NCBI GenBank assembly: GCA_018670895.1
Contig: JABHIS010000005.1
Coordinates: 3,757-67,756, forward strand
DNA: 64,000 nt
Source of the DNA: Candidatus Falkowbacteria bacterium
Lineage (GTDB): Bacteria > Patescibacteriota > Patescibacteriia > UBA11705 > JABHMO01
Direction: 5' to 3'
The position numbers and the translations under genes are program-made. The notes under the pieces were generated by a model, which was not told the origin of the DNA, did no database searches, and saw nothing but the letters and a program-made list of their open reading frames with translations. The stretch's first letter is position 1, and each line of letters begins with the position of its first letter. Below are positions 44,481 to 59,327 of this stretch, in pieces.

Positions 44481-44494
44481 AAACAACTCATCAA

Positions 44495-44522: not shown

Positions 44523-44523
44523 C

Positions 44524-44552: not shown

Positions 44553-44595
44553 TAACCTAATTGGACTTTGACAACAACCCATTGAGGAGGCCTTA

Positions 44596-46416
44596 ATGAA
44601 ACATTACTTGAATACAATAGTTCTCCTACTTGTTATTATTTTCTTCTCGGTGACCTGCAGTAAAAATGAACAGCCAAATGAAGTCATAGATTCAAAACCC
44701 AACAGCTCCGCTAAACTACTTGCTAAATTCAAGCACACACAAGCAGTTTATGGAATTGACTGGCATCCTGATGGAAAACTAATTGCATCTAGACACTACC
44801 GAGACACAGCTTTCATCTGGAACACTGAAAACAAAACTCGACAATTTGTTCATGATGGCAAGCAACTCACCGACATAAAATTCAGTACTGATGGTAGTTA
44901 CTTAGCCTTTATTGATCACGAAATTTCTAAATATAGCTGTCAGCGCGAATGTCGTTACTCTGACTATGAACGTTGCAATGACTGCAAGAAAAAACACGAG
45001 AACGATTACGATGTGAGATTCTTGTCAAAAGTCTACGACCTTAGACTAAAACATTACTTAAAAGAAATAGCAAGTGGCTCCGCTCAAACAATCTCAGCTG
45101 ACCTCAAGGTATATGTCACCCACGCTCTCGATTCAAAAATAATCTACTTTGATGGGACATACTTCTTTTCCTCCAGCAGTCGTGCAGGGATGGAGACTTT
45201 CATAGAGTCTAGTTCGAAAAATCACTTTTTTCATGAAGTAAAAAGTTATTCTGTGCGAAAAACAGAAGAAACAAAAGAAGGAAATACACACCTCGGCGCA
45301 ATGACAATTTTCTTGTCCACAAAAGGAAATCTGTTAAAGATTTTCAATCAAGCCGACGACGGGAAGGGGCCTCATTGTTCCATAAAACAATGCAGTCATG
45401 ATTACAAAATTATGGCTGCAGAGTGGCAACCCGGAACTAAGAAAATAACAGTTTTAAGTTCTGACAACATTCTAAGTCTTTGGGATAGTTGTTTCTCAGG
45501 TAAACAGCTTTACACCTACAATCACTCTGGCAGTGAAGCAGTGACCCTAAAATGGAATGTATCAGGTGATGTTCTGGCAGTTCAATTCATGAACAATATT
45601 TTACTGTTCAATGAAAAATTGGAACTCCAAAAAACACTGGATATTATGAGTAATGATATTGCCTGGAACAAAGATGGCAATATTTTAGCAGTCATTACCA
45701 AAAATAAAATTTATTTTTGGGACAACCTGAATTCGAATCTAACTTTTCATGAAAGTTCAGAAAAAATTAATGATTTTGCCTGGAATCCGGAATTCAATCA
45801 ATTCGCCCTGGCGACTGAAGTGAATGACGACGAAGGCTTTGTAGAAATTTGGGAGATTGACTCTTCTTATAGAATCATCGTCGCCAACAAAAAGAGAACT
45901 TCCAATAATACAGAACATCAGCTGACAATCAAAGAAGAAACAGTAAAAAAATTAACCACTGTTCGCTCTCTCATAAAACAATTACAAAAAAAGGAAGAAT
46001 CACTATCAGATGATCTTCGATCCTTCCAAACTGACGTAGACAGATACAAATCAACAATCACTGACTTGAAACTACACAACAATATTGCAAGCTATAAAGA
46101 AGCGGTCAAGAATGACCGGATAAACAATTATCTTGTAGCGATGCAAAAAGCTTTGGCCTACATGGACTTTATTAAACATGAGCTTTTAACTACTAGCAAA
46201 AGTTTAGTGGAGTCTGAAGGCACTCAATTACAACTGGAGCTTGATGCAAAAATTCTGGACAGCTTAGACGAGAACAAATTGGACCAGATGATTGCTCAAT
46301 TGGACTTGGTTATCACAAAAATTCAACCAAACGCCCAGGAACTCGTGATTAAAGAAAATGACACACAAAAAATACCATTAGAAAAACTATACAATGAGTA
46401 TTTTGAAGATGAGTAG
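44596..46416 (+). CDS. Surface-protein family member C (lipoprotein-like signal, WD40/beta-propeller repeats, conserved C-terminal module)
   Basis: Signal (FFSVTC|SKNE). WD-like repeats (IDWHPDGKLIAS...IWN, AEWQPGTKKITV...LWD, LKWNVSGDVLAV, DIAWNKDGNILAV...FWD, FAWNPEFNQFALA...IWE). C-terminal ...LQLELDAKILDSLDENKLDQMIAQLDLVITKIQPNAQELVIKENDTQKIPLEKLYNEY. Confidence 0.6.
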   Translation: MKHYLNTIVLLLVIIFFSVTCSKNEQPNEVIDSKPNSSAKLLAKFKHTQAVYGIDWHPDGKLIASRHYRDTAFIWNTENKTRQFVHDGKQLTDIKFSTDGSYLAFIDHEISKYSCQRECRYSDYERCNDCKKKHENDYDVRFLSKVYDLRLKHYLKEIASGSAQTISADLKVYVTHALDSKIIYFDGTYFFSSSSRAGMETFIESSSKNHFFHEVKSYSVRKTEETKEGNTHLGAMTIFLSTKGNLLKIFNQADDGKGPHCSIKQCSHDYKIMAAEWQPGTKKITVLSSDNILSLWDSCFSGKQLYTYNHSGSEAVTLKWNVSGDVLAVQFMNNILLFNEKLELQKTLDIMSNDIAWNKDGNILAVITKNKIYFWDNLNSNLTFHESSEKINDFAWNPEFNQFALATEVNDDEGFVEIWEIDSSYRIIVANKKRTSNNTEHQLTIKEETVKKLTTVRSLIKQLQKKEESLSDDLRSFQTDVDRYKSTITDLKLHNNIASYKEAVKNDRINNYLVAMQKALAYMDFIKHELLTTSKSLVESEGTQLQLELDAKILDSLDENKLDQMIAQLDLVITKIQPNAQELVIKENDTQKIPLEKLYNEYFEDE

Positions 46417-46425
46417 ATAACACAA

Positions 46426-46452
46426 ACCAGCACCACACCGTGCTGGTTTTAT
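46426..46452 (+). terminator. Intrinsic terminator (duplicated unit)
   Basis: Same accagcaccacaccgtgctggt hairpin as at 44495, followed by tttatt. Confidence 0.65.
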
Positions 46453-46454
46453 TA

Positions 46455-46483
46455 TTGACAATAACGTAAAATATTAGTAAGAT
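46455..46483 (+). promoter_or_regulatory. Promoter/5'UTR unit 3
   Basis: TTGACA at 46455-46460, a 17-bp spacer, then TAAGAT. Conserved acttttacaacaaaa block and SD. Confidence 0.5.
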
Positions 46484-46527
46484 ACAATGATTATGAACTT
46501 TTACAACAAAATGACAAGGAGGCCCAA

Positions 46528-48747
46528 ATGTCCAGATGGCTAAAGACAATTATTACTGTTATTATTATCATTTTTGCTTGTTCTTGTAACAAAGACAAAA
46601 AGGCCAAGAAAAATAAGTCAACTCGTCCTGAAGTCGCTGAAAAAAACTCCCCTAACTCCAATACTGAACCAGCTCCCCTCTCACAAGAAAAAGAAGCTCC
46701 ACCAAAGTCAAAAAAAGAAATTTCCGAAGAAAAGCTTGAACATGTAAAGCATCTTCGCAGAAAACTCGAAAGAAAAGAAAGAACCTTGGCTGGCGCACTT
46801 ATTACATACAAAGACAAAATTTCTATTTTTGTTCAAGAAATCAAACAAGAACGTAACCGTAGAAACTTGGTTGAATACAATCAGGCAATTTCAAGTAATT
46901 CAATCAAGCATAATCTCGAGGCAATTCAAAAAGCTGAGGCCTACTGGGGAATTACTAATAGGGAAAAAGTAAAAACAAAACTGGCAATTGTCGACGCAGA
47001 AGGAACTGAAAAACTACTTGATCTAGACATCACCATGTTTAGCACCATGCCTGAAGATGAAATCGACAAACTACTTGATGAACTTGACCTTGTAATTAAT
47101 AGAATCCAACCGACAGCCAGAGATCTTGTTATCACAGACAAGGAAACTGTGCTTACTCCTCTTGATGAGATTTACGAAAAACATATTCGTAAAGAGGAAC
47201 GTGAGCGAGAAAAAAAGGAAATTGAGCGTAAAAAAAAAGCTGAAGCTGACCGGTTAGAACGAGAGCGTCAGGTAAAACTAGCAAAAGAAAAAGCGTTAGC
47301 AGATACCCAGGCTCGTGCAGCCCTTAATGCTGAAGCTCGTCGCCAAGCGTTAATTGCTAGGAAACAAGCCGATGAAGAGGCTGCTAGTCAAGAGAGGACT
47401 GCCAGACTACAAGCAATCGCCGAGGCTACACGCCAAGCAAAAATTGCCAGACAGCAAATAACAGCCGAAGAAAACCGCATAGCTGATGAAGTAGTAAAAC
47501 AAATTGAGTATAAGAAACGCGAAGCTGAAAATCGTGCCCGAGAAAAAGCTGCTGAACTTGCTAGTAAGCAAAAAACAGCAGCAGCGATTGCTAACATCAA
47601 AATTATCAAACCCACTATCTGGACTTCTATTGCATATTACAGACCTGGGGGTGATGGTGCAGGTTACATCCGTTGGTCAAATGATAGCAAAGCAGTGGCT
47701 ATCACCACCTCATCAAAAATGACTATTAAGGGTGTTCCTCAAAGCACAACTTATGAGCTTGAATCTAATTACGATAACAGCGACTATATAACCGACATGA
47801 TCTGGTCTCAAAGCAAAACCAAAATTGCAATCTATTATTCACATTCTTGTGCACTGGAAAGAGGAAACGCCAAGATTGCAATTTACTCGTTAACAAATGA
47901 TAAAGAGCTCTGGAGGGTGGAAGTCGAATGCTCCCAAGCCGCTAGTTTCCTTGGTTGGTTTGGTGATTATATTGTCCTTAAAGCATCCGCTGGGTACAGT
48001 AGAAATTTTCACATTTACATTATCAATACGAAAACCAAGAAAACTCAATCATTCACAGCTGACGCGATAACCCCAGTAAACAACTCCTCTGTCTTTGCTG
48101 CAAGCTCAAAAAGAATAATCCAAGTCAGTCTTTCTGACAGAACAATTCTAAAAGAGTTTAAGTTTTGTCGAGATGATGACGAGTCTCTTTATTATTCTTT
48201 TTGCCCAGGAGAGATTGACATTCATAAACTCGCCTACACGAGCGGGCATCTAATTTCATCAGAGTCGCCACAAAACGGAGAAAGTAGCTTCTCCATTTGG
48301 GACACAACTTCTGGAAATAAACTCCACTGGTTTAAAGGTGACGAACCAAGAGATCTTTGGTGGCTAAAAGACGGCAAAACAGCAGTTATTGCTTTGTCGT
48401 CTGGCACAATTTTTACAGTAAATGCGAAAAGTGGATCAATTTACGAGAAAAAGCTCGTAGATGGTGCGATTGGCTTTTATGGCTATAATGTAAACACTTG
48501 GTCCACTAAAAAACCTCATCTTGTTATCAATAAAAATTCTCCTCAGCACGAAACAGCTCTTAATGAAAAAGCAGGTTCGTACAATACTCTCTTTGTCATG
48601 GATATTAGGGACCAACAAACAAAGGCCGTCTTGGTTATGGAGTCAGATATCTCAGATTCTGTCAGACTTTCATGGAGCCCAAACGGCAAGTACCTCGCAA
48701 TTGGAGACAAGGGACTCCTTCATGTTTTCAATGTAAGCAATATTTGA
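46528..48747 (+). CDS. Surface-protein family member D (lipoprotein-like, conserved module near N-terminus, long coiled coil, C-terminal beta-propeller)
   Basis: Signal IIIFAC|SCNKDKK. Module ...KLLDLDITMFSTMPEDEIDKLLDELDLVINRIQPTARDLVITDKETVLTPLDEIYEK. E/K/R/A-rich coiled coil of about 170 aa. C-terminal repeats SWSPNGKYLAIGD...VFNV, WWLKDGKTAVIAL...FTVN. Confidence 0.6.
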   Translation: MSRWLKTIITVIIIIFACSCNKDKKAKKNKSTRPEVAEKNSPNSNTEPAPLSQEKEAPPKSKKEISEEKLEHVKHLRRKLERKERTLAGALITYKDKISIFVQEIKQERNRRNLVEYNQAISSNSIKHNLEAIQKAEAYWGITNREKVKTKLAIVDAEGTEKLLDLDITMFSTMPEDEIDKLLDELDLVINRIQPTARDLVITDKETVLTPLDEIYEKHIRKEEREREKKEIERKKKAEADRLERERQVKLAKEKALADTQARAALNAEARRQALIARKQADEEAASQERTARLQAIAEATRQAKIARQQITAEENRIADEVVKQIEYKKREAENRAREKAAELASKQKTAAAIANIKIIKPTIWTSIAYYRPGGDGAGYIRWSNDSKAVAITTSSKMTIKGVPQSTTYELESNYDNSDYITDMIWSQSKTKIAIYYSHSCALERGNAKIAIYSLTNDKELWRVEVECSQAASFLGWFGDYIVLKASAGYSRNFHIYIINTKTKKTQSFTADAITPVNNSSVFAASSKRIIQVSLSDRTILKEFKFCRDDDESLYYSFCPGEIDIHKLAYTSGHLISSESPQNGESSFSIWDTTSGNKLHWFKGDEPRDLWWLKDGKTAVIALSSGTIFTVNAKSGSIYEKKLVDGAIGFYGYNVNTWSTKKPHLVINKNSPQHETALNEKAGSYNTLFVMDIRDQQTKAVLVMESDISDSVRLSWSPNGKYLAIGDKGLLHVFNVSNI

Positions 48748-48752
48748 CAATA

Positions 48753-48780
48753 AACCCACCTTCGACAAGGTGGGTTTTTA
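48753..48780 (+). terminator. Intrinsic terminator
   Basis: aacccacc-ttcgacaa-ggtgggtt followed by ttta. Confidence 0.6.
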
Positions 48781-48781
48781 C

Positions 48782-48810
48782 TTGACAAAACCATTAAAAT
48801 GTATAAAACT
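48782..48810 (+). promoter_or_regulatory. Promoter unit 4 (extended -10)
   Basis: TTGACA at 48782-48787 and a tgtataaaa extended -10-like element. Conserved ctttaaca block and SD GGAGG before 48845. Confidence 0.5.
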
Positions 48811-48844
48811 AGTATGAAAGGTTGATCTTTAACAGAAGGAGGTC

Positions 48845-49696
48845 GTGATGACGAAAAGATTAAAATTCTCCAGACTTATCCTAGGTATTATCTGTATCGC
48901 ACTTGCAATTCTGATTTTCATGGCCTTAATTCGTTTTGGCACTGTATTTGCTTTTCTCATGATCTATCCGTGGATTTCCGACGCCTTGCAATCCTCTGCT
49001 GGAATGAATCACTGGCTAGCAAGTATAATCGCCTTTGTTCCGGCAGTCGTCGGGGTAATCGGCATTGGGATGCTTTTCTCCTGGAATAGGAAAAGACGAA
49101 CTATCGGCATGGTCATGGCGGGTATCGCCTATCTCACCACGTGCGCCTTTATGTACTCCATTGAGGCAGATCGCTCATTTGACCCCATTACAGGAAAAGC
49201 AAATAAATGCTATGCTGCAGGCTTAAACGGTTATGAAGAAATTTCTTGTGAATGGAAATTCCATCCCGAGACTGGCAATCCCGTCATCACAGACCTTGGT
49301 GAAATTAAAAAAATCATCACCTCAATGAATGTTTCAGAAAGTGAACCAAGGATCTCCAATAAGGTCCGTCCAAACAAAAACCTACGTTTCTTCTCTGTTG
49401 ATGGAACACCTATGTATTGGTACTATGAATTTCCAGATGGCGTAATTGACATGTTTGACTCCCCTGGTAGACATCCACACTTCAACACAGTACTGCAGCC
49501 CATCACGCCAGAAATTGTAAAAATCGTTCTTTATCCTCAAGATAATTGGGATATTGAAAGAGTTAATTTGCCAGACTCAAAGCCCATCAGCCAGGGTGAC
49601 CCAAAAGCGCTTTCATCTGCCAACAGCGGAAACGATAGCGCTATGGAAGAACTTCGCGATCTCTATATCGAGAGAAAAAAGCAACTAAAACAGTAA
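48845..49696 (+). CDS. hypothetical membrane protein with extracytoplasmic C-terminal domain (GC-rich)
   Basis: 283 aa. 3-4 TM helices, then a soluble domain. Higher GC than background. Confidence 0.45.
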   Translation: MMTKRLKFSRLILGIICIALAILIFMALIRFGTVFAFLMIYPWISDALQSSAGMNHWLASIIAFVPAVVGVIGIGMLFSWNRKRRTIGMVMAGIAYLTTCAFMYSIEADRSFDPITGKANKCYAAGLNGYEEISCEWKFHPETGNPVITDLGEIKKIITSMNVSESEPRISNKVRPNKNLRFFSVDGTPMYWYYEFPDGVIDMFDSPGRHPHFNTVLQPITPEIVKIVLYPQDNWDIERVNLPDSKPISQGDPKALSSANSGNDSAMEELRDLYIERKKQLKQ

Positions 49697-49756
49697 ATCA
49701 CAAACACAAGGCCCACCGTAACACGGAGGGTCTTTTTTATACTTGGTAATTAAAAT

Positions 49757-51034
49757 TTAATGCGTCGCGCAACTGATACATGGATCGTATGCCCGAATCA
49801 AAGTTTTTATTAACGAATCTCTCTTCTTATCTGACAACTTTTTAATTTGCGGCAAATATTTCTCAAGATCTTTTTCCAAATTAGCCAAAAACATAGCGGT
49901 TGGTGTAATTACATTGCAATGAATAATTTCGCCCACCTTGTTAAATTCATATTCATGATACAAGATCCCACGAGGTGCCTCCATCACAGCATAACCCTTA
50001 CCAGCCTTAACTATGAAATCAACTTTTAGGTTTTTCATAAACTTCGGTTTTGCTCGCAGTTTCTCATATTGGACAAAAAGTTTATTTATCTCCTCAATTG
50101 AATTAATAATCTCAGTTGTCTGGGCTACTATATTATAGAATGAATTATAACACGGCAAGTTCACTTTTAGCTTATTCCAAGAAGCTTTTGCCTCTTTGTT
50201 CAGCTGAGCATAATTATTGTTCACTCGAGCAAGAGCGCCAACCATGAACGTTTCTTTCATATGATGTGAGCGTTTAACTTTTTCATATGGTAAAACAGTT
50301 TCTTGCACGTCACTTAGGAAATCCTCGACTTTATCATAACTATCATTATCTGAGAAATAAATGCTCCCATCATAAACTGCATATTCATTTTTATTTTTCA
50401 AAGAAACATAATTTGTTGGTCTTTGAAACTTTGGTAATTTATATTTCAAAACCACATCATGAATTTGCCTAGCTTGTAATAGAACTTGCTTTTGTTTTTG
50501 CATTAATTCTTTAAGTTCAACAAAGTCTGGCTCAACATTAAATCCACCAACTACACTATTAATCGGATGAACGGTTCGACCTCCAACAACTCGCGCTAAC
50601 TGCACTCCCCAATCACGAACTTGAAGAGCAATTTTTGACTCTTTGGTATACTTATTTATCAAAGCAAAATTATTACTAACACCTACGATATCAGGAAACG
50701 AGAAAAAGAAAGCATGTACTGCATGACTATGAATTATTTGCGCATTTTCTAGGATCTTACGAAGCAATATTATTTCCGGAGTTACCCTGACACTAAAAGC
50801 TGCCTCAACGGCCTTAATTGAAGTTAAATTATGCACAATCGGGCATACACCACAAATCCGCGAAGTTACAATCGGAGCTTCGTAATATTTTCTATTTAAT
50901 AATATTCCTTCGATCAAACGAGCTCCCTCTTCTGTGTCCACGCGAGCTTGAGCAAAATCATTACCAAGCAAAGCCCCAACGAAACTCAGGTGGCCTTCAG
51001 TTTTGGCGATGTGATTTATTTTAATAGTTTTCAT
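49757..51034 (-). CDS. [NiFe]-hydrogenase large (alpha) subunit, group-3-like, without C-terminal cleavable extension
   Basis: N-terminal RICGVCPIVH (RxCGxCxxxH). The C-terminus ends exactly at DPCISCATH (DPCxxCxxH). Confidence 0.85.
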   Translation of the reverse strand: MKTIKINHIAKTEGHLSFVGALLGNDFAQARVDTEEGARLIEGILLNRKYYEAPIVTSRICGVCPIVHNLTSIKAVEAAFSVRVTPEIILLRKILENAQIIHSHAVHAFFFSFPDIVGVSNNFALINKYTKESKIALQVRDWGVQLARVVGGRTVHPINSVVGGFNVEPDFVELKELMQKQKQVLLQARQIHDVVLKYKLPKFQRPTNYVSLKNKNEYAVYDGSIYFSDNDSYDKVEDFLSDVQETVLPYEKVKRSHHMKETFMVGALARVNNNYAQLNKEAKASWNKLKVNLPCYNSFYNIVAQTTEIINSIEEINKLFVQYEKLRAKPKFMKNLKVDFIVKAGKGYAVMEAPRGILYHEYEFNKVGEIIHCNVITPTAMFLANLEKDLEKYLPQIKKLSDKKRDSLIKTLIRAYDPCISCATH

Positions 51035-52053
51035 AAAGGATATTTTATTTTACCTGTATTAACAATTAACATTTTTTTATCTTTCGGTAATTTGTTTTTC
51101 AATTGAAGCATCAACGCCAACCCAGCAATACCAGAGGCCTCACAATCTATTTGTTGGCACGCAGCAACTCTCAAGGCCTCATCAATAAATTGTTCTTTAA
51201 CGTTATAAACATCCGATTTCGAACCACAATAACCAGCATAGCGATAAAGTTTAATCCACTGCTCATCATAATTAACAAAGGGCAAATGAGGGGAAAACAA
51301 TTTATTAGCCTTAGTCTTCGGATTGTTAGTGGTCGACCCAAAAAAATTACAAGCTCTCAATTTATTCACTCTACCCCTAAACCTTGGGTCATGATGACTT
51401 GTCACAACCTCCCGTTTATTAATATTTAAAATATTTTCAAATAAATGTCCCGACCCAAACGGAACAAAACAATAGTCAGGAGAACTGTTAATAATTTCAT
51501 AACTTAACCAGTCATAATATCTAGTTGTCGGATCAAGTGCTTCACTTGACGTAATATCGAAACCATTTTTATTTTTTGTTAATCGCAAAATTTCATTCCA
51601 AGAAAACGCTTTTTCACTTAAATCAGTTTTAAATATCTTGCAACCAGTTTTATACAAAAATTTCAGAATTTCATCATCAATGTGATTATCAACTAGTACT
51701 CGCAAATTAGGTAATTTATACTTTTTCAATTGCACCTGAATGGCAATCGCTGCTGAACCTGATGAGATTATTGAAACATCGGGTAATTTACTTATTTGTC
51801 CCCCTTTTTTTGACAACAAGAAATCACGATAAGTCACTACCATTTCCCAAGCCATTCTATCTTTATGCGTCCCCGTTGGATTATGACTTTCATCCTTCAA
51901 CCAAACATTATTAAATCCAGGTACTTTTATTTTGTAAGTTGGAGTAGCGGGAAACTTCGGATCATCAACTGGAAATTCGGGCTTTTCTGGATTATTTTCC
52001 GATGCAATTACAATTGACTTTAATATTTTTTCTTCTTGCTTGGTTAATGCCAT
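51031..52053 (-). CDS. PLP-dependent fold-type II enzyme, threonine-synthase-like, embedded in the hydrogenase operon
   Basis: LKDESHNPTGTHKDRMAW. Compare the threonine synthase / cysteate synthase motif NPTGSFKDRG, where the Lys binds the cofactor as a Schiff base. 4-bp overlaps on both sides. Confidence 0.6.
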   Translation of the reverse strand: MALTKQEEKILKSIVIASENNPEKPEFPVDDPKFPATPTYKIKVPGFNNVWLKDESHNPTGTHKDRMAWEMVVTYRDFLLSKKGGQISKLPDVSIISSGSAAIAIQVQLKKYKLPNLRVLVDNHIDDEILKFLYKTGCKIFKTDLSEKAFSWNEILRLTKNKNGFDITSSEALDPTTRYYDWLSYEIINSSPDYCFVPFGSGHLFENILNINKREVVTSHHDPRFRGRVNKLRACNFFGSTTNNPKTKANKLFSPHLPFVNYDEQWIKLYRYAGYCGSKSDVYNVKEQFIDEALRVAACQQIDCEASGIAGLALMLQLKNKLPKDKKMLIVNTGKIKYPL

Positions 52054-52066
52054 AAATAATTTCTAA

Positions 52067-52834
52067 TTATTTTCTAAGTTTATTTCTTTTCTTCCAAACT
52101 AACTCTTTAACGCCAAAAACTTCAAAAAATTTAGAGATTTCTTTATCTGAATATTTTTCTTTTAATTTTTTGATTAAATTATCTACTTCCGCATCTTCAA
52201 CTAAACCACGACAACCCCAACAGCCTTGCATTGATTTTGTACAAATAGCATCACATCCGCCTTGCGTAATTGGCCCCATACAGACCTCACCATATTGCAA
52301 AACACACTTTTGTCCCCTCACTTGGCACTCATAACAAACTGGATTTTGAGTAATAGCTGGTTCTTTGCCAATTAATAGCTGGTATACAAAATCATAAAAT
52401 TCTTCTCCTGTTATTGGACATCCTGGGATAGAAAAATCCACCTTAACGTATGCACTTAGTGGCTTGACATCCAAATTCTCAATTCCCTTTTCACCTTGAT
52501 AAACATAATCATGAATTTTGTTTTTATCTTGATACATTTTTAAATGATAAATTCCACCCATATGTGCGCAACTACCAATTGAGATGACATACTTTGAATT
52601 TTTCCTAACCAACTTTAACTGTTTGATATCTCGCGTGGTCAAAGGGCTACCTTCAACAAAAACAATATCGTACTTTTCATCTGGTGAGTGTTCGTCCTCT
52701 TCAAATAAACGAAAATTTACTATTTCAATTTTTTCATTCAATTCAAGTAACTTATTTGGTAAATCTAAAATCGCAACACAGCAACCTTCACAGCCGGTCA
52801 ATGGGAATATTCCTACTTTTATTTTGTTATTCAT
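52067..52834 (-). CDS. [NiFe]-hydrogenase small (delta) subunit with extra C-terminal Fe-S clusters
   Basis: LTGCEGCCVAI ... SIGSCAHMGG ... IPGCPITGEEF. C-terminal Cys clusters CYECQ...CVLQYGEVC...GGCDAIC...GCWGC. Confidence 0.8.
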   Translation of the reverse strand: MNNKIKVGIFPLTGCEGCCVAILDLPNKLLELNEKIEIVNFRLFEEDEHSPDEKYDIVFVEGSPLTTRDIKQLKLVRKNSKYVISIGSCAHMGGIYHLKMYQDKNKIHDYVYQGEKGIENLDVKPLSAYVKVDFSIPGCPITGEEFYDFVYQLLIGKEPAITQNPVCYECQVRGQKCVLQYGEVCMGPITQGGCDAICTKSMQGCWGCRGLVEDAEVDNLIKKLKEKYSDKEISKFFEVFGVKELVWKKRNKLRK

Positions 52835-52867
52835 AGTAATAAGTAAAATGTAAAAGGTAAAAAGTAA

Positions 52868-53236
52868 TCACAACTGTTTTTGAATTGATTTTATCAAACC
52901 ATTTATAAGTCTTTTCACCTCATCTGCATGATTTACTAACTCTTCACAAAAACTGCTTTCTAATATATTAAGACCTCTTGAAACAAGTAAAAAACTTTGC
53001 ACTTCTGACAACGAACCCCTCGCTTGATAATAAAATCGAATCTTATCTTTGAAATAATAGCGAGAAAATCCTTCAGCAATGTTGGCGGTGATCGATATTG
53101 AAGCTCTTCGGATTTGACTTATAAGTCCAAATTTTTCTTCAGCAGGAAAATCCGATGTCACCTCATAAACTTTTAAAGTAAATTTATATGCACGTTGCCA
53201 AGCCTTTAAATCGTAATAATTATTTATTTTATTCAT
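52868..53236 (-). CDS. Four-helix-bundle protein (TIGR02436-like)
   Basis: 122 aa. ...ASISITANIAEGFSRYYFKDKIRFYYQARGSLSEV... Confidence 0.7.
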   Translation of the reverse strand: MNKINNYYDLKAWQRAYKFTLKVYEVTSDFPAEEKFGLISQIRRASISITANIAEGFSRYYFKDKIRFYYQARGSLSEVQSFLLVSRGLNILESSFCEELVNHADEVKRLINGLIKSIQKQL

Positions 53237-53269
53237 AACAGTCCCTTATTACCCTTTACACTTTACTGG

Positions 53270-53743
53270 TTACTTTTTACGTTGTTCCAAAATTGCCTTT
53301 AATTCTTCAGGTCGATTGGTTACAAAAAAGTATGGTCGTCTTTGGCCAGCAACTGTAATAACTAAACCTTTACCTCCCCGAGGCACATAACCAACTGTTT
53401 TGTCACGACCAAATCGAATACCGTAACCTAAATAATTTTGAAACTTATACTCACTAAATTCTATTTTTTTTATTTTACTTATTAAAATACGCTTGCGGAA
53501 TTTCATAAACCCGAAGATTAAATGCGTATCACTTACCTTGATGTTTAACTCTCGAAAAGACGCCAAAATGAAAACATTCAACAATAAAATAATTGCTAAT
53601 ACAGTTTTTGAAGCGTTGTCCAAAGCAATTGGTTTATCTGTGTACTGCGACATTAGAATTATAAGAAAAATCAAACAGGTGATTACCAGAATCGCAGTAA
53701 TTAAATGATAAGTTTGAACCTTGTCTTTGAAAATTGTTGGCAT
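53270..53743 (-). CDS. Membrane protein with bacterial PH-like (YdbS-type) domain
   Basis: 157 aa. Two N-terminal TM helices, then a soluble domain of about 90 aa. Architecture like bPH_2 proteins. Low certainty. Confidence 0.4.
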   Translation of the reverse strand: MPTIFKDKVQTYHLITAILVITCLIFLIILMSQYTDKPIALDNASKTVLAIILLLNVFILASFRELNIKVSDTHLIFGFMKFRKRILISKIKKIEFSEYKFQNYLGYGIRFGRDKTVGYVPRGGKGLVITVAGQRRPYFFVTNRPEELKAILEQRKK

Positions 53744-53763
53744 ATTTTTTATCTATTCACTCA

Positions 53764-54561
53764 TTAAAAATAATTTACACTTCTTAAAAATTCATAATTA
53801 AACACAGGACCATCTTTGCAAATATACTTGGACCCAATAGCACAATGCTGACACACTCCTACTCCGCAATGCATTCTTTTTTCCAATGAAAAATACATAT
53901 TAGCTGGCTCAACCTTTTTGGCCAAAAGTTCTTTCACAACGAACTTGTACATTATCGCTGGCCCACAGACAAACACTAACGAATTCTTCAATAACTTCTT
54001 TTTCTTTATTAAGTCCGTAACAAATCCTTTTTGTTTAGCAAACCCGGGAATAGTTTCATTTTCCAAAATCAATCCAAAATCATGTTTGTTTTTTATTTTT
54101 GAATACTCTCTTTTGAATACTAGTGATTCCTGTGTCGAACAACCAACCAACACTTGAAGCTTAATATCTTTACGATTGCGATTTTCTTCGAACACGCTTC
54201 GCAATGGAATAAAACCACAACCACCACCGATCAGAATTAAATTTTTAGTAACCTCAGGAAATCCGTTACCAAAAGGTCCACGCACAAAAGCTTTATCGCC
54301 AACCTTCAGGTTATTTAATTTAGCAGTTAATTCTCCAACACTACGAATTGTTAAACAAAAATGTTTATCTGACAACTTTGGGCTCGAAGAAATTGAAATA
54401 GGGCATTCACCAAAACCTGGTAAGCCAATTTGCATAAACTGCCCTGCCAAAAATTTTAATTCATTTTGCTTGTCCAAACTAAAATAAAAAGTATTGGTAA
54501 TTGAATTTTCTTTAACTACTTTAATAACCTTTGCTGGTTGTAGGGCATATTGATTTTTCAT
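53764..54561 (-). CDS. Hydrogenase gamma subunit (FAD/NAD(P)-binding ferredoxin-reductase-like with C-terminal 2Fe-2S)
   Basis: 265 aa. PyrK/HydG-like. C-terminal CGVGVCQHCAIGSKYICKDGP. Confidence 0.75.
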   Translation of the reverse strand: MKNQYALQPAKVIKVVKENSITNTFYFSLDKQNELKFLAGQFMQIGLPGFGECPISISSSPKLSDKHFCLTIRSVGELTAKLNNLKVGDKAFVRGPFGNGFPEVTKNLILIGGGCGFIPLRSVFEENRNRKDIKLQVLVGCSTQESLVFKREYSKIKNKHDFGLILENETIPGFAKQKGFVTDLIKKKKLLKNSLVFVCGPAIMYKFVVKELLAKKVEPANMYFSLEKRMHCGVGVCQHCAIGSKYICKDGPVFNYEFLRSVNYF

Positions 54562-55532
54562 ACTTTTTTCAATTCTTGCAAATTCTCAGCAATATTAATT
54601 TCAACTGGGCAAGTTTTGTAACAACGCATACAACTAACACAACCATAGTAATCGAACTCATCAGGAATGCGTACAAATTTATGATAATACCAAAAATATA
54701 ATTTCTTTTTTACTGAATCCAATTCTTTATTACCACCCGTTATTTCAGAAAACTTTGGATAAAAACAGGTTGTCCATTGTCGTGTTTTCACGACTTGATC
54801 AAATTCAACCTTATCCTTCTGGTCAAAGCAAAAACAGGTTGGACAATGGATTGAGCACTTCCCGCAACTAAGACAAATTTTAGCTAATTTATCCCATAGT
54901 GGGTGGTCAGGATTGTTCAATATTGCTAGCTTTTTTTGTTCAATCAAAGGATTGGGACCATGCTCAGGTATAAATCCAGCAAATTCAATATTTTCGTAGT
55001 CTTCAATTTTACTTTTTTCCAGAAGCTGTTGACCTTTTTCCGAGCCGGAAAACAAAATCAAATTACCACTCTTCTGTCTTTCAACAAAAACATCAAAAAT
55101 AAGATGCTCTAACACATCTTCTTCATATTTTTTATTAAACACTTTGTATTTACGTAAATCATCCTCAATGCCATTAGTTAAACCAATATAATGTAAGGAT
55201 TGTCGACGCTTTTGAAAATAATAATCTTTAGCAAAAACCTGTTCAAATAAAGCCAAGGCTCGTAAATCTAAAATATTTAATCCAAGAATAAAAATAGGCT
55301 TTATTTTTTCATTAATAACTTTAGCTACGTCCTTGGAATATGTCGCCATATCTTGTTTAGCTGGCAAAACAATTGACTTGAATGAATTCAATGGTATGTC
55401 ACCAGACCAGTCCATATCCCCCGGTTTAAAAATTTGTTTAACTAAAACCATTTCTCCATCTTTAACTGGAGAATAAACGAAACCCTTTTCTAGCAATTTT
55501 GCTACAAATTTATCAAATTCAGACTTTTTCAT
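54558..55532 (-). CDS. Hydrogenase beta subunit (4Fe-4S dicluster protein, sulfhydrogenase HydB-like)
   Basis: 324 aa. CLSCGKCSIHCPTCFCFDQKD and CVSCMRCYKTCPVEI. Confidence 0.75.
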   Translation of the reverse strand: MKKSEFDKFVAKLLEKGFVYSPVKDGEMVLVKQIFKPGDMDWSGDIPLNSFKSIVLPAKQDMATYSKDVAKVINEKIKPIFILGLNILDLRALALFEQVFAKDYYFQKRRQSLHYIGLTNGIEDDLRKYKVFNKKYEEDVLEHLIFDVFVERQKSGNLILFSGSEKGQQLLEKSKIEDYENIEFAGFIPEHGPNPLIEQKKLAILNNPDHPLWDKLAKICLSCGKCSIHCPTCFCFDQKDKVEFDQVVKTRQWTTCFYPKFSEITGGNKELDSVKKKLYFWYYHKFVRIPDEFDYYGCVSCMRCYKTCPVEINIAENLQELKKV

Positions 55533-55560
55533 ATAATAGGATTATAACAAAATTTTCACC

Positions 55561-55624: not shown

Positions 55625-55711
55625 CTATTTACACTTACAGGTCTTACAACCACAGCTGGTACATTTAGATTTACACTTGCAAGGAGCGCATTTACATTTG
55701 TCACATTTCAT
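55625..55711 (-). CDS. Metallothionein-like Cys-rich micro-protein (28 aa), below the ORF-track cutoff
   Basis: Minus-strand ORF atg aaa tgt gac aaa tgt aaa tgc gct cct tgc aag tgt aaa tct aaa tgt acc agc tgt ggt tgt aag acc tgt aag tgt aaa tag = MKCDKCKCAPCKCKSKCTSCGCKTCKCK. 11 Cys in C-K-C / C-x-C arrangement. Weak RBS. Confidence 0.35.
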   Translation of the reverse strand: MKCDKCKCAPCKCKSKCTSCGCKTCKCK

Positions 55712-55748: not shown

Positions 55749-56966
55749 CTAATCCTGCAAGCGAAATCCACCAACTTTATTACGCAAGCGATTGAGTTTC
55801 AATAAAAATGCAGGTTTAATAGTTAATTCCCCATAGCGATCATTAATTTCATCAAGATATGGTAAAAGTTTTTTTTGTTGACGATCTTTTGAGAATAACG
55901 GCAACTGTTGGTAATCTTTTACTAAATTACTAACATGAATTCCAAGTAAACGTACAGCATTGGGAAATTTGAAATTTGAAATCTTCTTTTTTCCAAGTTC
56001 ATAAAACCGAAAACTATCATTCAAATAACCTGGAAAAGTTTTACGTACTCCACCGTGAGTAAAATCAGCATACCTCCAATAAACAACTATTGTCTTACCA
56101 GCCAAATTATTACGACGCAGTTCACGGCCGGTCTTTTCACATAGATGCAGTAATACAGTGAGTATCTCAGTTTTATCAAATGTGTTCTTAGCTAAAGTAT
56201 ATGACCGGCCAACAGATTTTGCTTCTGCTTGTTGTAAATAAGAGGTGACTGGCTCGTTATCTTCACCCCACGACATGTTCTGAAGTTTCTCACCATAAAA
56301 AGGACCGAAAATCCTGCATAGTTCCGCCTTTGGATATTCTCTAAGCTTGCTAACAGTATCAACACCTAAATCACTCAAATGCTTTTTTATCCGCCTACCA
56401 ATACCACAAAAATCATCTAATTCAATATTGCTCAAAACTGCCTCTTTATTTTGATCATTAATAAAAAACAAACCATCTGGCTTGTCTAATCCTGAGGCTA
56501 ATTTAGCCAATAATTTATTTTTCGCAACACCTACTGAACAAGTAACCCACTCCCCTAACTCGGCCTTAATTTGGGCTTTGATTCTCCTAGCTGAACAACT
56601 TATTTGTTCAGCATCTTTGCAATAACCAGTCATATCCAAAAAGGCTTCATCAATACTAAAAACCTCTACTTTTTCAGTATACTGCTTGAATATTTCTATC
56701 ATTTTCCTAGAAGCGTTTTCGTACTTTAATCCATCTGGTTCTACAAAAATAAGAGCCTTACAAAGAGCCTTAGCCTCAAATGGCAACATGCCCGTTTTGA
56801 TCCCCAACTTCTTAGCCTCCACAGATGAAGCTACAATTACGCTCCGCGAACCTTCCTTGCCAGAAACAACGATCGGCCTACCGCGAAGGTATGGCCGGGC
56901 TTGCTGTTCAATGGTGGCAAAAAACGAATCCATGTCTATGTGAAAAATTGTTCTCTCAATTATCAT
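55749..56966 (-). CDS. dinB: DNA polymerase IV (Y-family)
   Basis: MIIERTIFHIDMDSFFATIEQ... palm, finger, thumb and little-finger domains. Confidence 0.9.
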   Translation of the reverse strand: MIIERTIFHIDMDSFFATIEQQARPYLRGRPIVVSGKEGSRSVIVASSVEAKKLGIKTGMLPFEAKALCKALIFVEPDGLKYENASRKMIEIFKQYTEKVEVFSIDEAFLDMTGYCKDAEQISCSARRIKAQIKAELGEWVTCSVGVAKNKLLAKLASGLDKPDGLFFINDQNKEAVLSNIELDDFCGIGRRIKKHLSDLGVDTVSKLREYPKAELCRIFGPFYGEKLQNMSWGEDNEPVTSYLQQAEAKSVGRSYTLAKNTFDKTEILTVLLHLCEKTGRELRRNNLAGKTIVVYWRYADFTHGGVRKTFPGYLNDSFRFYELGKKKISNFKFPNAVRLLGIHVSNLVKDYQQLPLFSKDRQQKKLLPYLDEINDRYGELTIKPAFLLKLNRLRNKVGGFRLQD

Positions 56967-58928: not shown

Positions 58929-59327
58929 TCAAACCTTTTTACCATCCAAAGAACTAGTTATCTTTTGAAAAATAAATACTAATTCTTGGACTTCATTTGC
59001 TAAATACTCTATTTTTTGTTTTCTACTAGAAACAGCCTTCTTCATCATACGTAACCAATGCTTTGTTTCCTGCGCTTCCTTTTTACAAATATAAATTTTA
59101 TTACGAAAATCTTTTTTTGAACTAGCACCATTTGCTTCCATATAATTCGCCCCAATAGAAGTTCCTGAACGAAGCAGCTGGTTCAATATTGGACGATTCA
59201 TAAAACATTGTTGTATATTCTGGCACAAATCAATAATATCCTCGCCGAACTTGGCAGTTCTTTCTTCTAAATCATATTTATTATTTTTTTTGTTATTATC
59301 AGTAATCATATTTGAAAATTTTATCAT
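58929..59327 (-). CDS. Four-helix-bundle protein (TIGR02436-like), second copy
   Basis: ...LLRSGTSIGANYMEANGASSKKDFRNKIYICKKEAQETKHWL... Confidence 0.7.
   Translation of the reverse strand: MIKFSNMITDNNKKNNKYDLEERTAKFGEDIIDLCQNIQQCFMNRPILNQLLRSGTSIGANYMEANGASSKKDFRNKIYICKKEAQETKHWLRMMKKAVSSRKQKIEYLANEVQELVFIFQKITSSLDGKKV

What the first reader, a model, noticed from the sequence alone, without database searches (positions are those of the whole stretch)
49757..55532. Group-3-like [NiFe] hydrogenase operon with three embedded non-hydrogenase genes and a large subunit lacking a C-terminal extension
Seen: beta, gamma, small and large subunit genes are present on one strand. The gamma-to-small interval carries a bacterial-PH-like membrane protein and a four-helix-bundle gene. 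The small-to-large interval carries a threonine-synthase-like PLP enzyme (NPTGTHKDR) with 4-bp overlaps on both sides, implying co-translation with the hydrogenase.

The large subunit terminates exactly at the DPCISCATH His. There is therefore no peptide for a HycI/HybD-type maturation protease to remove. No hyp genes other than a truncated hypA-like gene (42659..42913) occur in the window. The operon promoter places TATAAT only about 9 nt before the ATG, so the mRNA may be leaderless.

Established: 3b-type sulfhydrogenases are typical of CPR genomes.

Inference: the PLP enzyme (threonine/cysteate-synthase-like) may be metabolically coupled, for example to sulfide produced by the hydrogenase.
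Basis: partly seen in the sequence, partly recalled or inferred. Interest (0 to 1): 0.55.

Follow-up and report, generated by a model that had tools for sequence, protein, structure and literature searches.

The report
CPR hydrogenase operon with hitch-hiking genes
This is a typical cytoplasmic nickel-iron hydrogenase operon of a tiny candidate-phyla-radiation (CPR) bacterium; the vitamin-B6 (PLP) enzyme gene inside it moved there recently and is probably not a metabolic partner, while the missing tail on the catalytic subunit is a real trait of the whole clade.

Summary
One detail is wrong: small and PLP genes are separated by 13 nt and do not overlap.

The enzyme is a CPR 'hyd1' group 3b hydrogenase, a kind described by Jaffe et al. 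2020. It lies in a conserved DinB–hydrogenase–HypA–PGK–enolase neighbourhood.

The three embedded genes differ in status.
- The 157-aa protein (two transmembrane helices plus a PH-like domain) is a conserved member of the operon in this clade.
- The four-helix gene is a stem-flanked, intervening-sequence-like cassette.
- The PLP gene sits in a hypervariable slot between small and large. The contig whose large subunit is 94% identical lacks it, a related contig carries it next to GlyRS, and 80 other species carry it away from any hydrogenase.

The large subunit ending at DPCISCATH is shared by 119 of the 120 nearest homologues, so it is not a sequencing error. A cysteine-free 84-aa HypA accompanies it. 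The -10 box 8–9 nt before the first ATG is conserved in seven genomes, which supports a leaderless mRNA.

How the enzyme matures without canonical factors remains open.

The parts
55541..55549 (-). Extended -10 promoter element TGtTATAAT, 8 nt upstream of the beta ATG (55532); predicts a leaderless or near-leaderless operon mRNA
   Evidence: Sequence. The same TGnTATAAT-type box lies 8-9 nt before the beta ATG in L086, L092, L094, L095, L100 and L101. The generic promoter scan is at chance level, so the support is comparative.
54558..55532 (-). Hydrogenase beta subunit (HydB/ShyB-like Fe-S protein, 324 aa)
   Evidence: PF17179 Fer4_22 1.9e-24. NCBIfam ShyB 1.5e-25, AsrA 3.9e-22, both far below the equivalog cut-offs.
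53764..54561 (-). Hydrogenase gamma subunit (FAD/NAD(P)-binding, 2Fe-2S, 265 aa); ATGA overlap with beta
   Evidence: PF10418, PF00175 and PF00970. NCBIfam PRK08345 hydrogenase gamma 7.5e-58.
53270..53743 (-). 157-aa membrane protein: two transmembrane helices plus a C-terminal PH-like (bPH-type) domain. It is a conserved operon member in this clade.
52835..53274 (-). Intervening-sequence-like cassette: four-helix-bundle gene (ORF 53236..52868, 122 aa) bracketed by a long imperfect inverted repeat that closes a stem of about 30 bp in the RNA
   Evidence: PF05635 1.7e-35 and TIGR02436. The MFE fold closes on the flanks. Flank duplex is -37.3 kcal/mol against -14.4 +/- 4.7 for 43 other genes in the window. 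Relatives L100, L101 and L105 have p157 and small adjacent without it.
52067..52834 (-). Hydrogenase small (delta) subunit, 255 aa
   Evidence: PF01058 1e-22. NCBIfam ShyD 4e-49.
51031..52053 (-). Fold-type II PLP enzyme (340 aa) of a compact, uncharacterised family found in CPR bacteria and DPANN archaea. It is a recent insertion into the small-large slot: 13-nt spacer upstream, ATGA overlap downstream.
   Evidence: PF00291 4.2e-22. 70-75% identity to proteins of many Patescibacteria and DPANN archaea. Absent from the slot in L104 and L105. Junctions confirmed by L108. GC and GC3 equal to those of the neighbouring genes.
49757..51034 (-). [NiFe] hydrogenase large (alpha) subunit, 425 aa, with RICGVC and DPCISCATH ligand motifs and no C-terminal extension
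   Evidence: PF00374. HydA/ShyA are the best NCBIfam models. Best PDB matches are 5yxy HyhL and 9e15 SHI alpha, whose precursors have 4 residues after the His. 119 of 120 homologues end at the His.
49710..49732 (-). Terminator-like GC hairpin followed by a T-rich run after the large subunit
   Evidence: Sequence and fold (weak, z = -1.5). The same hairpin follows the large subunit in L104.
42659..42913 (-). Mini-HypA (84 aa): Ni-binding domain with N-terminal MHD, no CxxC zinc site. In relatives it lies directly after the large subunit; here it is displaced by a 6.8-kb plus-strand block and has its own TGcTATAAT.
   Evidence: PF01155 41.2 bits, profile positions 1-70 of 112. Matches T. kodakarensis HypA residues 1-64. 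15 orthologues are 83-86 aa with 0-1 Cys. Synteny; promoter.

Best explanation
The region is the 'hyd1'-type group 3b (NAD(P)-linked, cytoplasmic) [NiFe] hydrogenase operon of a Falkowbacteria/Kuenenbacteria-like Patescibacterium.

How it most likely works:
- It is transcribed from a conserved extended -10 promoter as a leaderless polycistronic mRNA.
- By homology with the P. furiosus and T. kodakarensis enzymes, electrons pass from NAD(P)H through gamma (FAD, 2Fe-2S), beta (4Fe-4S) and the small subunit to the NiFe site (inferred, not shown here).
- Its conserved position next to PGK, enolase and iPGM suggests that it balances fermentative reducing equivalents with H2 (inferred).

The three 'embedded' genes are of three kinds:
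1. The PH-domain membrane protein is a conserved, clade-specific operon member. It may act as a membrane tether (speculative).
2. The four-helix gene is a self-contained, stem-flanked cassette of the 23S-rRNA intervening-sequence type that inserted between p157 and small. Its stem may be an RNase III target (inferred).
3. The PLP enzyme is a native, single-copy gene of a family shared by CPR and DPANN. In this species it was relocated precisely into the small/large junction, a slot that carries different cargo in almost every lineage. It now rides on the operon's transcript and on the ancestral TTATGA coupling signal. Its chemistry is probably beta-replacement or beta-elimination on an amino acid and is independent of the hydrogenase.

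The large subunit, like those of its whole clade, is made in 'pre-processed' form. No endopeptidase step is therefore needed. Nickel is presumably delivered by the cysteine-free mini-HypA.
For: Hydrogenase identity:
- 3b identity and complete metal ligands.
- The CPR hyd1 architecture is described in PMC7304191.
- Conserved synteny DinB-beta-gamma-p157-small-[slot]-large-HypA-PGK-enolase-iPGM in L086-L107 and in the window.
- Promoter spacing conserved in 7 genomes.

The slot between small and large:
- Nudix: L098, L100, L101.
- 414-423 aa membrane protein with or without Nudix: L086, L088, and the contig of P0125.
- 290-302 aa membrane protein: L091, L097.
- IVP-like gene: L099.
- 119 aa membrane protein: L096.
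- 95 aa ORF: L095.
- 1.4 kb without ORFs: L092.
- Several unrelated genes: L106, L107.
- Nothing: L090, L094, L104, L105.
- PLP enzyme: only the window and L004.

The PLP gene:
- L104 (94% identical large subunit) has the small subunit's C-terminus overlapping large by ATGA.
- The PLP 3' junction reuses the ancestral TTA-TGA.
- In an NJ tree the window's PLP protein groups with that of a related Patescibacterium, where the gene follows GlyRS.
- Its GC and GC3 match the neighbouring genes.
- 80 of 80 species loci have the PLP gene away from any hydrogenase.

Other features:
- IVP flank stems.
- Extension-less large subunits in 119 of 120 homologues.
- Mini-HypA conserved in 15 loci.
- Naturally extension-less [NiFe] large subunits are an accepted phenomenon in groups 2b, 2d, 4c, 4e and 4g (PMC7294309).
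Against: - The PLP gene also occupies the same slot in L004, whose hydrogenase is only about 47% identical and whose PLP protein groups with archaeal sequences. That looks like an independent second insertion, which chance alone makes somewhat unlikely. The NJ tree on such similar sequences is weak.
- The function of the PLP family is unknown, so a link to sulfide or another hydrogenase product cannot be excluded by sequence.
- No transcript data exist. Leaderless status, read-through of the cassette stem and co-translation are all inferred.
- Only 64 kb of the genome was seen, so the absence of HypB-F and of a protease in the organism is untested.
Confidence: 0.75

Rival explanations
1. The PLP enzyme is functionally coupled to the hydrogenase. 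For example, a cysteine-synthase- or O-phosphoserine-sulfhydrylase-like enzyme could fix sulfide made by the 'sulfhydrogenase' activity. On this view selection has placed it in the operon.
For: - Co-transcription and ATGA translational coupling with the large subunit.
- The same family occupies the same slot in the distant L004 operon, apparently through a separate insertion.
- The weak best matches are to CysM/OASS and archaeal threonine-synthase models, and the Arg of a DPTTR motif is nearly invariant.
Against: - The nearest relatives lack the insertion (L104, L105).
- A related contig keeps the gene next to GlyRS.
- None of 80 species loci shows linkage.
- In sampled DPANN loci the gene sits among unrelated or metal-homeostasis genes with no hydrogenase nearby.
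- The slot holds unrelated cargo elsewhere.
- The ATGA coupling signal predates the insertion.
- The substrate loop is SSGSAA rather than the TSGNT recalled for OASS (own knowledge), and all curated cut-offs are missed by a wide margin.
Confidence: 0.12
2. The operon is degenerating. Insertions between structural genes, separation from hypA and the lack of Hyp machinery would mean the hydrogenase is no longer made in active form.
For: - Three foreign or relocated elements interrupt the operon, and a 6.8-kb block separates it from hypA.
- No hypB-F genes lie in the 64-kb window.
Against: - All seven ORFs are intact.
- All four Ni/Fe cysteine ligands and the promoter are conserved.
- The same genome segment appears in independent assemblies: the identical p157 protein is on 28 contigs, and L108 matches the window.
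- Similar interruptions exist throughout a clade that keeps the genes at 46-94% identity, which implies purifying selection.
Confidence: 0.08
3. The PLP enzyme is a novel hydrogenase maturation factor, for example one that supplies a ligand precursor. On this view it compensates for missing Hyp proteins.
For: - It sits immediately before the large subunit in two operons.
- Maturation genes appear sparse in the window.
- L004 combines it with an unusual HypC-HydE fusion.
Against: - It is absent from the operon in 18 of the 20 operons sampled.
- In all sampled DPANN and most CPR loci it has no hydrogenase gene within 10 kb.
- It is far more conserved (about 72%) than the hydrogenase subunits (46-51%) between the window and L004. 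That fits a hydrogenase-independent role.
Confidence: 0.03

Closest known systems
CPR-specific 'hyd1' clade of group 3b [NiFe] hydrogenases (Jaffe et al. 2020, BMC Biol 18:69, PMC7304191)
   Same: - Patescibacterial host.
- Large subunit, a small subunit of about 250 aa, and beta and gamma subunits co-located on one strand.
- Variable genomic context, with beta and gamma not always adjacent to small.
- The nearest homologues of the window's large subunit are almost all from Patescibacteria.
   Different: - That paper does not mention maturation, the missing C-terminal extension, the mini-HypA, the PH-domain protein or the leaderless promoter ('maturation' and 'HypA' occur 0 times).
- The HypC-like family it reports near hyd1 and hyd2 is not present in this window.
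Pyrococcus furiosus sulfhydrogenase I and Thermococcus kodakarensis Hyh (characterised group 3b; PDB 9e15, 9nez, 5yxy)
   Same: - Four-subunit alpha-beta-gamma-delta architecture.
- Best sequence match of the large subunit, about 200 bits over its full length.
- Identical ligand motifs.
   Different: - The scores (222 bits against 880 for HydA) are far below the NCBIfam equivalog cut-offs.
- The archaeal precursors carry 4 residues after the His (chain 428 aa, alignment ends at 424). The CPR protein has none.
- The archaeal HypA is 139 aa and, from own knowledge, carries a zinc domain. Here it is 84 aa with no Cys.
Naturally extension-less [NiFe] large subunits (H2 sensors of groups 2b/2d such as R. 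eutropha HoxC; CooH, group 4c; Ech, group 4e; group 4g)
   Same: The polypeptide ends at the His of the C-terminal DPCxxCxxH motif, so no endopeptidase cleavage is possible (PMC7294309).
   Different: - Those enzymes belong to other groups; group 3b is not in the published list.
- They are reported to be matured by the canonical Hyp machinery. For this clade the machinery is unknown.
Fold-type II PLP enzymes (threonine synthase, O-acetylserine sulfhydrylase CysK/CysM, cystathionine beta-synthase, serine/threonine dehydratases, serine racemase)
   Same: - PALP domain, NPxGxxKDR Schiff-base lysine motif, glycine-rich phosphate loop and a C-terminal E(A/P)SG motif.
- The predicted fold matches all of them at TM about 0.55.
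   Different: - 13-20% identity to any solved structure. The best sequence E-value is only 1e-3 (CysM), and the best NCBIfam score is 36 bits against a cut-off of 421.
- It forms a compact family of its own: 434 clusters at 50% identity among 1.84 billion representatives.
- Many more distant relatives carry variable N-terminal modules, including TIR domains.
23S rRNA intervening-sequence (IVS) elements encoding PF05635 four-helix-bundle proteins
   Same: - Same protein family (122 bits).
- An ORF enclosed by a long stem formed from the element's ends. This is the architecture of RNase III-excised rRNA intervening sequences (own knowledge).
   Different: - It is inserted in an mRNA operon between two protein genes, not in 23S rRNA. 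No rRNA is present in the window.
- Processing has not been tested.

Membership tests
Group 3b [NiFe] hydrogenase | Large subunit with N-terminal RxCGxC and C-terminal DPCxxCxxH Ni/Fe-ligand motifs | tested here: met
   RICGVC and DPCISCATH are present. Both motifs are conserved in 119-120 of 120 homologues.
Group 3b [NiFe] hydrogenase | Closest similarity to characterised 3b enzymes rather than to 3a, 3c, 3d or groups 1, 2 and 4 | tested here: met
   PDB scores: HyhL and SHI alpha about 200 bits, against Mvh/Vhu (3c) 127-136, NAD-reducing (3d) 104 and Frh (3a) 101 or less. NCBIfam: HydA 222 and ShyA 213, against VhuA 125 and FrhA 116. HydDB and a reference tree were not available.
Group 3b [NiFe] hydrogenase | Heterotetramer gene set: HydB-like Fe-S beta and HydG-like FAD/NAD(P) gamma with small and large subunits | tested here: met
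   all four genes are on one strand.
Group 3b [NiFe] hydrogenase | Equivalog-level match to P. furiosus HydA/B/G/D or ShyA/B/C/D (NCBIfam cut-offs) | tested here: not met
   Alpha scores 222 bits against 880, beta 90 against 690, gamma 169 against 600, and delta 167 against 460. It is a divergent clade, not an orthologue of the archaeal enzymes.
Group 3b [NiFe] hydrogenase | Precursor with a short C-terminal peptide removed by a HybD/HycI-type endopeptidase | tested here: not met
   The stop codon follows the His directly. The same holds in 119 of 120 homologues. No protease gene was found in the window.
Group 3b [NiFe] hydrogenase | NAD(P)H-linked H2 evolution or uptake (and S0 reduction) activity | not testable with these tools
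   Needs enzyme assays.
CPR 'hyd1' clade (Jaffe 2020) | CPR host; large, full-length (about 250 aa) small, beta and gamma subunits co-located | tested here: met
   Small subunit is 255 aa. p157 is 100% identical to a Candidatus Falkowbacteria protein. The named homologues are almost all Patescibacteria. Placement in the authors' tree was not tested.
Threonine synthase | Match to curated TS models above cut-off | tested here: not met
   Best model PRK05638 scores 36.5 bits against a cut-off of 421. By fold it is no closer to TS than to CysM, TdcB or serine racemase.
Cysteine synthase / O-acetylserine sulfhydrylase | Match to curated CysK/CysM models; conserved TSGNT substrate loop | tested here: not met
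   CysM scores 19.6 bits against a cut-off of 394, and PDB CysM gives E = 1e-3 over the N-terminal third only. The loop reads SSGSAA, which is invariant in the family. The reference loop is recalled from own knowledge.
Fold-type II PLP-dependent enzymes (PALP superfamily) | PF00291 above the gathering score; Schiff-base Lys in the N-P-x-G-x-x-K-D-R motif; tryptophan-synthase-beta-like fold | tested here: met
   79.3 bits against a cut-off of 35. K64 is invariant. 425 PDB chains match at E <= 1e-3; all 50 listed are fold-type II enzymes. PLP binding itself was not tested.
HypA nickel metallochaperone | N-terminal M-H-E/D nickel site | tested here: met
   All 15 orthologues start MHD(L/I/F)H. 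Pfam HypA scores 41.2 against a cut-off of 28.9.
HypA nickel metallochaperone | Zinc-binding domain with two CxxC motifs, which is also the HypB-interaction region (PMC13202556) | tested here: not met
   The window protein has 0 Cys and its orthologues have 0-1. The profile is matched only over positions 1-70 of 112, and the NCBIfam equivalog scores 41.5 against 88.1.
23S rRNA intervening-sequence protein / IVS element | PF05635 protein; ORF enclosed by a long terminal stem; located inside 23S rRNA | tested here: inconclusive
   Protein family met and flanking stem met. Location not met: the element is in an mRNA operon and the window has no rRNA.
Bacterial PH (bPH) membrane proteins | Two N-terminal transmembrane helices followed by a PH-fold domain; match to bPH Pfam models | tested here: inconclusive
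   Architecture and fold are met. Pfam bPH_5 and DUF3093 match only at E = 0.016-0.05 and only in some members.
Leaderless mRNA | Transcription start at or within a few nt of the start codon | not testable with these tools
   Indirect support only: the -10 box is 8-9 nt from the ATG in 7 genomes and no Shine-Dalgarno sequence is visible before the ATG (by eye). 5'-end mapping is needed.

The most novel reading that the evidence does not exclude
CPR hyd1 hydrogenases may be matured by a reduced, non-canonical route. The steps would be:
- The large subunit is made pre-processed, with no extension and no endopeptidase proofreading.
- Nickel comes from a zinc-free mini-HypA that lacks the HypB-interaction region.
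- In some lineages the Fe(CN)2CO unit involves a HypC fused to a HydE-type radical-SAM enzyme (seen in L004), or HypC with DUF6390 and EamA (seen in L106 and L107), instead of HypD, HypE and HypF.

The window's operon would be the most stripped-down example, with only the mini-HypA nearby.
Probability: 0.2. Interest if true: 0.8.

Novelty: new variant of a known kind. Interest (0 to 1): 0.35.

Why it matters
As a coupled hydrogenase-PLP enzyme system it does not hold up, so that part is ordinary genome plasticity.

What remains useful:
1. A whole clade of group 3b hydrogenases lacks the C-terminal extension and is paired with a cysteine-free mini-HypA. This extends the published list of naturally 'pre-processed' [NiFe] enzymes (groups 2b, 2d, 4c, 4e, 4g). 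It also offers a minimal natural system for asking what the extension, the protease and the HypA zinc domain are for.
2. The operon shows how CPR genomes tolerate precise insertion of unrelated genes between co-translated subunits, at a recurrent hot spot.
3. The PLP enzyme belongs to a compact, very conserved, uncharacterised family shared by CPR bacteria and DPANN archaea. More distant relatives are fused to TIR and other variable modules. The family deserves study in its own right.

Tried and rejected
- Sequencing error or chimeric assembly as the cause of the missing extension or of the PLP insertion. Rejected: 119 of 120 homologues end at the His, and the independent contig L108 reproduces both junctions.
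- Threonine synthase, cysteate synthase or OASS identity for the PLP enzyme. No curated model or solved structure comes close, and the fold search does not discriminate between subfamilies.
- A conserved gene neighbourhood of the PLP gene as a clue to function. The only recurrent neighbour is a convergent gene of about 319 aa that looks like an AbrB/PhoU-type regulator by eye (11 of 83 loci); Lrp/TrmB-like regulators occur less often. None of this is informative.
- PADLOC defence models on the PLP core. No hit; only the TIR parts of fused relatives match weakly.
- Source names for the fused relatives. None are recorded. The N-terminal extension of one cluster has no PDB match.
- Rfam on the window and on the ORF-free L092 slot. 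No hits. No tRNA in the window.
- Generic promoter and terminator scan. At chance level, so comparative alignment was used instead.
- Search for HypC, HypC-HydE, EamA, DUF6390 and p132 homologues in the window. None found.
- Literature searches for CPR hydrogenase maturation, HypC-HydE fusions, TIR-PLP fusions and IVP cassettes with inverted repeats. Nothing relevant in the held library.
- AFDB fold library. Unavailable.
- Whole-genome search for hyp genes. Not possible, because the collection scans and contig look-ups were capped.

Full report
**1. What is there**

On the minus strand between 55532 and 49757 lie seven intact ORFs:
- beta, 324 aa
- gamma, 265 aa, ATGA overlap with beta
- a 157-aa protein (p157)
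- a 122-aa four-helix-bundle protein
- the small subunit, 255 aa
- a 340-aa PLP enzyme
- the large subunit, 425 aa

Pfam and NCBIfam identify beta, gamma, small and large as the four subunits of a sulfhydrogenase-type enzyme. The models are Fer4_22/ShyB, FAD-NAD-2Fe2S/PRK08345, Oxidored_q6/ShyD and NiFeSe_Hases/HydA-ShyA. All scores are far below the equivalog cut-offs.

The large subunit's best solved relatives are T. kodakarensis HyhL and P. furiosus SHI alpha, at about 200 bits. Group 3c, 3d and 3a enzymes score lower. It carries RICGVC and DPCISCATH and stops right after the His.

One detail of the finding is wrong. Small ends at 52067 and the PLP gene starts at 52053, so they are separated by 13 nt and do not overlap. 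The ATGA overlap between the PLP gene and large is real.

**2. Whose genome, and what is the normal layout**

The 157-aa protein is 100% identical to a protein annotated in 'Candidatus Falkowbacteria bacterium' and seen on 28 contigs. The named nearest homologues of the large subunit are almost all from Patescibacteria.

I compared loci recovered through large-subunit relatives. They show a conserved backbone:

LexA ... DinB – beta – gamma – p157 – small – [slot] – large – HypA(84-87 aa) – PGK – enolase – iPGM – iPGM

The window has the same backbone: DinB at 56966..55749, hypA at 42913..42659, PGK at 42649..41492 and enolase at 41487..40228. The difference is a 6.8-kb plus-strand block at 43047..49696 that now separates large from hypA. 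That block encodes WD40 and coiled-coil proteins and has higher GC.

This is the CPR-specific 'hyd1' form of group 3b described by Jaffe et al. 2020, with variable context (PMC7304191). As a hydrogenase operon it is therefore a known kind.

**3. The three embedded genes are three different things**

(b) The four-helix gene (PF05635, 122 bits). It is absent from that position in L100, L101 and L105, where p157 and small abut.
- It is bracketed by an imperfect inverted repeat that closes a long stem in the minimum-energy fold.
- The flank-flank duplex is -37.3 kcal/mol, against -14.4 +/- 4.7 for 43 other genes in the window.
- Other copies are bracketed in the same way but with unrelated sequences. 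These include a second one at 59327..58929 and those in L004, L095, L099, L100 and L106.

This is the architecture of rRNA intervening sequences, here sitting in an mRNA.

(c) The PLP enzyme. It is discussed in sections 4 and 5.

**4. The PLP gene is a recent arrival in a hypervariable slot**

Twenty operons were sampled. The small-to-large interval holds the following:
- Nudix hydrolase: L098, L100, L101
- a 414-423-aa membrane protein, with or without Nudix: L086, L088, and the contig carrying P0125
- a 290-302-aa membrane protein: L091, L097
- a four-helix gene: L099, whose large subunit is 85% identical over the part recovered
- small unknown ORFs: L095, L096
- 1.4 kb without ORFs: L092
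- several unrelated genes: L106, L107
- nothing: L090, L094, L104, L105
- the PLP gene: only the window and L004

L104 has a large subunit 94% identical to the window's. There the small subunit's C-terminus (…KEKYSDKEISKFFEVFGVKEL…) runs straight into the large subunit's ATG through TTATGA.

In the window the PLP ORF ends …KYP-L-stop and uses that same TTA-TGA. At its native locus in a related genome the ORF ends …KYP-stop. The translational coupling signal therefore predates the insertion.

Further points:
- The related contig that carries the operon (large subunit 68% identical) has its PLP gene directly after GlyRS.
- In an NJ tree the window's PLP protein groups with that one. L004's groups with archaeal sequences (weak resolution).
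- GC and GC3 of the PLP gene equal those of its neighbours.
- In 80 species-representative loci from CPR and DPANN genomes the PLP gene never has a hydrogenase gene within 10 kb.
- An independent assembly confirms the window's junctions.

The one fact that keeps a small probability on functional coupling is the second, apparently independent, occurrence in L004.

**5. What the PLP enzyme is**

It is a fold-type II (PALP) enzyme.
- Lys64 (the Schiff-base lysine of NPTGTHKDR), an SSGSAA loop and a YDW…YE block are invariant among 38 family members; Arg178 of the DPTTR motif is nearly invariant.
- Family members are 55-75% identical across many Patescibacteria classes and across Woese-, Micr-, Iain- and Nanoarchaeota. 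Between the window and L004 they are far better conserved (72%) than the hydrogenase subunits (46-51%).
- By sequence it is barely related to anything solved: CysM at E = 1e-3. The best curated model is an archaeal threonine-synthase model at 36 bits against a cut-off of 421.
- The AF2 model (pLDDT 73) matches serine racemase, CysM, TdcB, CBS and TS about equally, at TM about 0.55 and 13-20% identity.
- An exhaustive profile search of 1.84 billion representatives finds only 434 clusters.
- About three quarters of the 150 best-scoring representatives are longer than the 340-aa core. Among 53 with an N-terminal extension of at least 80 aa there are at least eight unrelated extension types plus 16 singletons.
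- Pfam recognises TIR_2 in 6 of 99 scanned and a winged-helix domain in one.
- PADLOC does not know the core.

I therefore commit only to beta-replacement or beta-elimination chemistry on an amino acid, unrelated to the hydrogenase. It cannot be filed as threonine, cysteate or cysteine synthase.

**6. The missing C-terminal extension is real and clade-wide**

Of the 120 nearest homologues (46-94% identity), 119 end exactly at DPCxxCxxH. The exception is a fragment. L004's large subunit does too.

The characterised archaeal 3b precursors have only 4 residues after the His, so the step to zero is small. Naturally extension-less large subunits are well known in groups 2b, 2d, 4c, 4e and 4g, where the canonical Hyp machinery still operates (PMC7294309). 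Group 3b is not on that list. This is a new member or variant of a known phenomenon, not a new principle.

The window contains no HycI/HybD-type protease and no HypB-F among the likely genes of at least 100 aa scanned with Pfam. Four genes were placed by synteny only. A 64-kb window cannot speak for the whole genome.

**7. The 'truncated' hypA is a conserved mini-HypA**

Fifteen orthologues are 83-86 aa. All start MHD(L/I/F)H and have 0-1 cysteines. They match the HypA profile and T. kodakarensis HypA only over the nickel domain.

Canonical HypA has an N-terminal MHE nickel site plus a two-CxxC zinc domain that also contacts HypB (PMC13202556). The CPR protein lacks the latter. In relatives the gene follows the large subunit directly. 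Here it has its own TGcTATAAT, 17 nt upstream.

More distant hyd1 operons add HypC, EamA and DUF6390 (L106, L107). L004 adds a HypC fused to a radical-SAM domain that passes the HydE equivalog cut-off, 257 against 254.6 bits. I found no paper on such a fusion. None of these genes is in the window. They motivate the 'novel case' but do not establish it.

**8. Promoter**

TGtTATAAT ends 8 nt before the beta ATG. A TGnTATAAT-type box lies 8-9 nt before the ATG in L086, L092, L094, L095, L100 and L101 as well, in otherwise unalignable intergenic DNA. A generic promoter scan is uninformative. Other genes in the operon also lack Shine-Dalgarno sequences by eye, so that absence alone is not diagnostic. 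The conserved spacing supports a leaderless, or 1-2-nt-leader, mRNA. Only 5'-end mapping can show it.

**9. Verdict**

The operon is a known kind (CPR hyd1, group 3b) carrying lineage-specific hitch-hikers. The worthwhile residue is:
- the clade-wide combination of an extension-less large subunit and a zinc-free mini-HypA
- the conserved leaderless promoter
- the stem-flanked cassette in an mRNA
- the uncharacterised PLP family shared by CPR and DPANN

Interest 0.35.

Noticed in passing
window 55711..55625 (-), between DinB and the operon promoter: A 28-aa Cys/Lys-rich micro-ORF (MKCDKCKCAPCKCKSKCTSCGCKTCKCK, 10 Cys). It has its own TGtTATAAT and is followed by a hairpin and a T run. L100 has the same 28 aa length and Cys pattern; L101 has a shorter Cys/Lys variant. 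It could be a metallothionein-like peptide or a Cys-codon leader.
   Followed up: partly
window 60209..63124 (-): A 971-aa homologue of the eukaryotic major vault protein (MVP_shoulder 3e-28, Vault_3). Its GC is 0.49 against about 0.35 for the genome. The same gene lies upstream of LexA in L101 and L105.
   Followed up: no
window 58929..59327 (-); also L004 8409-8765, L095 566-913, L099 207-593, L100 910-1296 and 10332-10685, L106 4818-5201: Every PF05635 four-helix-bundle gene examined is bracketed by its own long inverted repeat (-25 to -37 kcal/mol), like rRNA intervening sequences, although none of them lies in rRNA. This suggests a family of stem-flanked mobile cassettes in CPR mRNAs.
   Followed up: partly
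L004 2246..3526: A HypC domain fused to a radical-SAM/BATS domain that passes the NCBIfam HydE ([FeFe]-hydrogenase maturase) equivalog cut-off (257 against 254.6 bits). It lies inside a [NiFe] group 3b operon. No report was found in the held literature.
   Followed up: partly
L106 2865..4726; L107 4857..6703: More distant hyd1 operons carry a conserved HypC–EamA transporter–DUF6390 trio between gamma and small. By eye, the C-terminal part of DUF6390 looks HypC-like (…CRISWGKV…GDMVTIHWGF…).
   Followed up: no
L092 8565..10000 (87% identical over the shared part in L093): A 1.4-kb segment without ORFs longer than 68 aa occupies the small-large slot. It has no Rfam match. It could be a decayed gene or an unknown RNA.
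   Followed up: partly
proteins P0252, P0255, P0259, P0271 (relatives of window 51031..52053): Relatives of the PLP enzyme at 30-47% identity carry variable N-terminal modules. These include TIR domains (6 of 99), one winged-helix domain and at least seven unrecognised types. Such a modular pattern is typical of conflict or signalling proteins. The PLP core is not in PADLOC.
   Followed up: partly
L106 1510..1908, L107 4123..4521; L001/L002 about 4484..4891, L084 6837..7223: A 132-aa Cys-rich small membrane protein sits inside hyd1 operons in L106 and L107. In three otherwise unrelated loci, two of them archaeal, it sits 1-3 kb from the PLP gene.
   Followed up: no
window 43047..49696 (+): A 6.8-kb block of five plus-strand genes: a 606-aa WD40 protein, a 739-aa coiled-coil plus WD40 protein, and membrane proteins. 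It has raised GC (0.37-0.43 in four of the five genes) and positive AT skew (up to +0.25). It splits the large subunit from hypA-PGK. The terminator hairpin after large is shared with L104.
   Followed up: partly
L003 1..7923 (Micrarchaeia): In this archaeon the PLP gene sits in a metal-homeostasis cluster: ZnuA/ABC transporter, NikR_C, ArsR, glutaredoxin, the PLP gene, then a cation-efflux protein.
   Followed up: no
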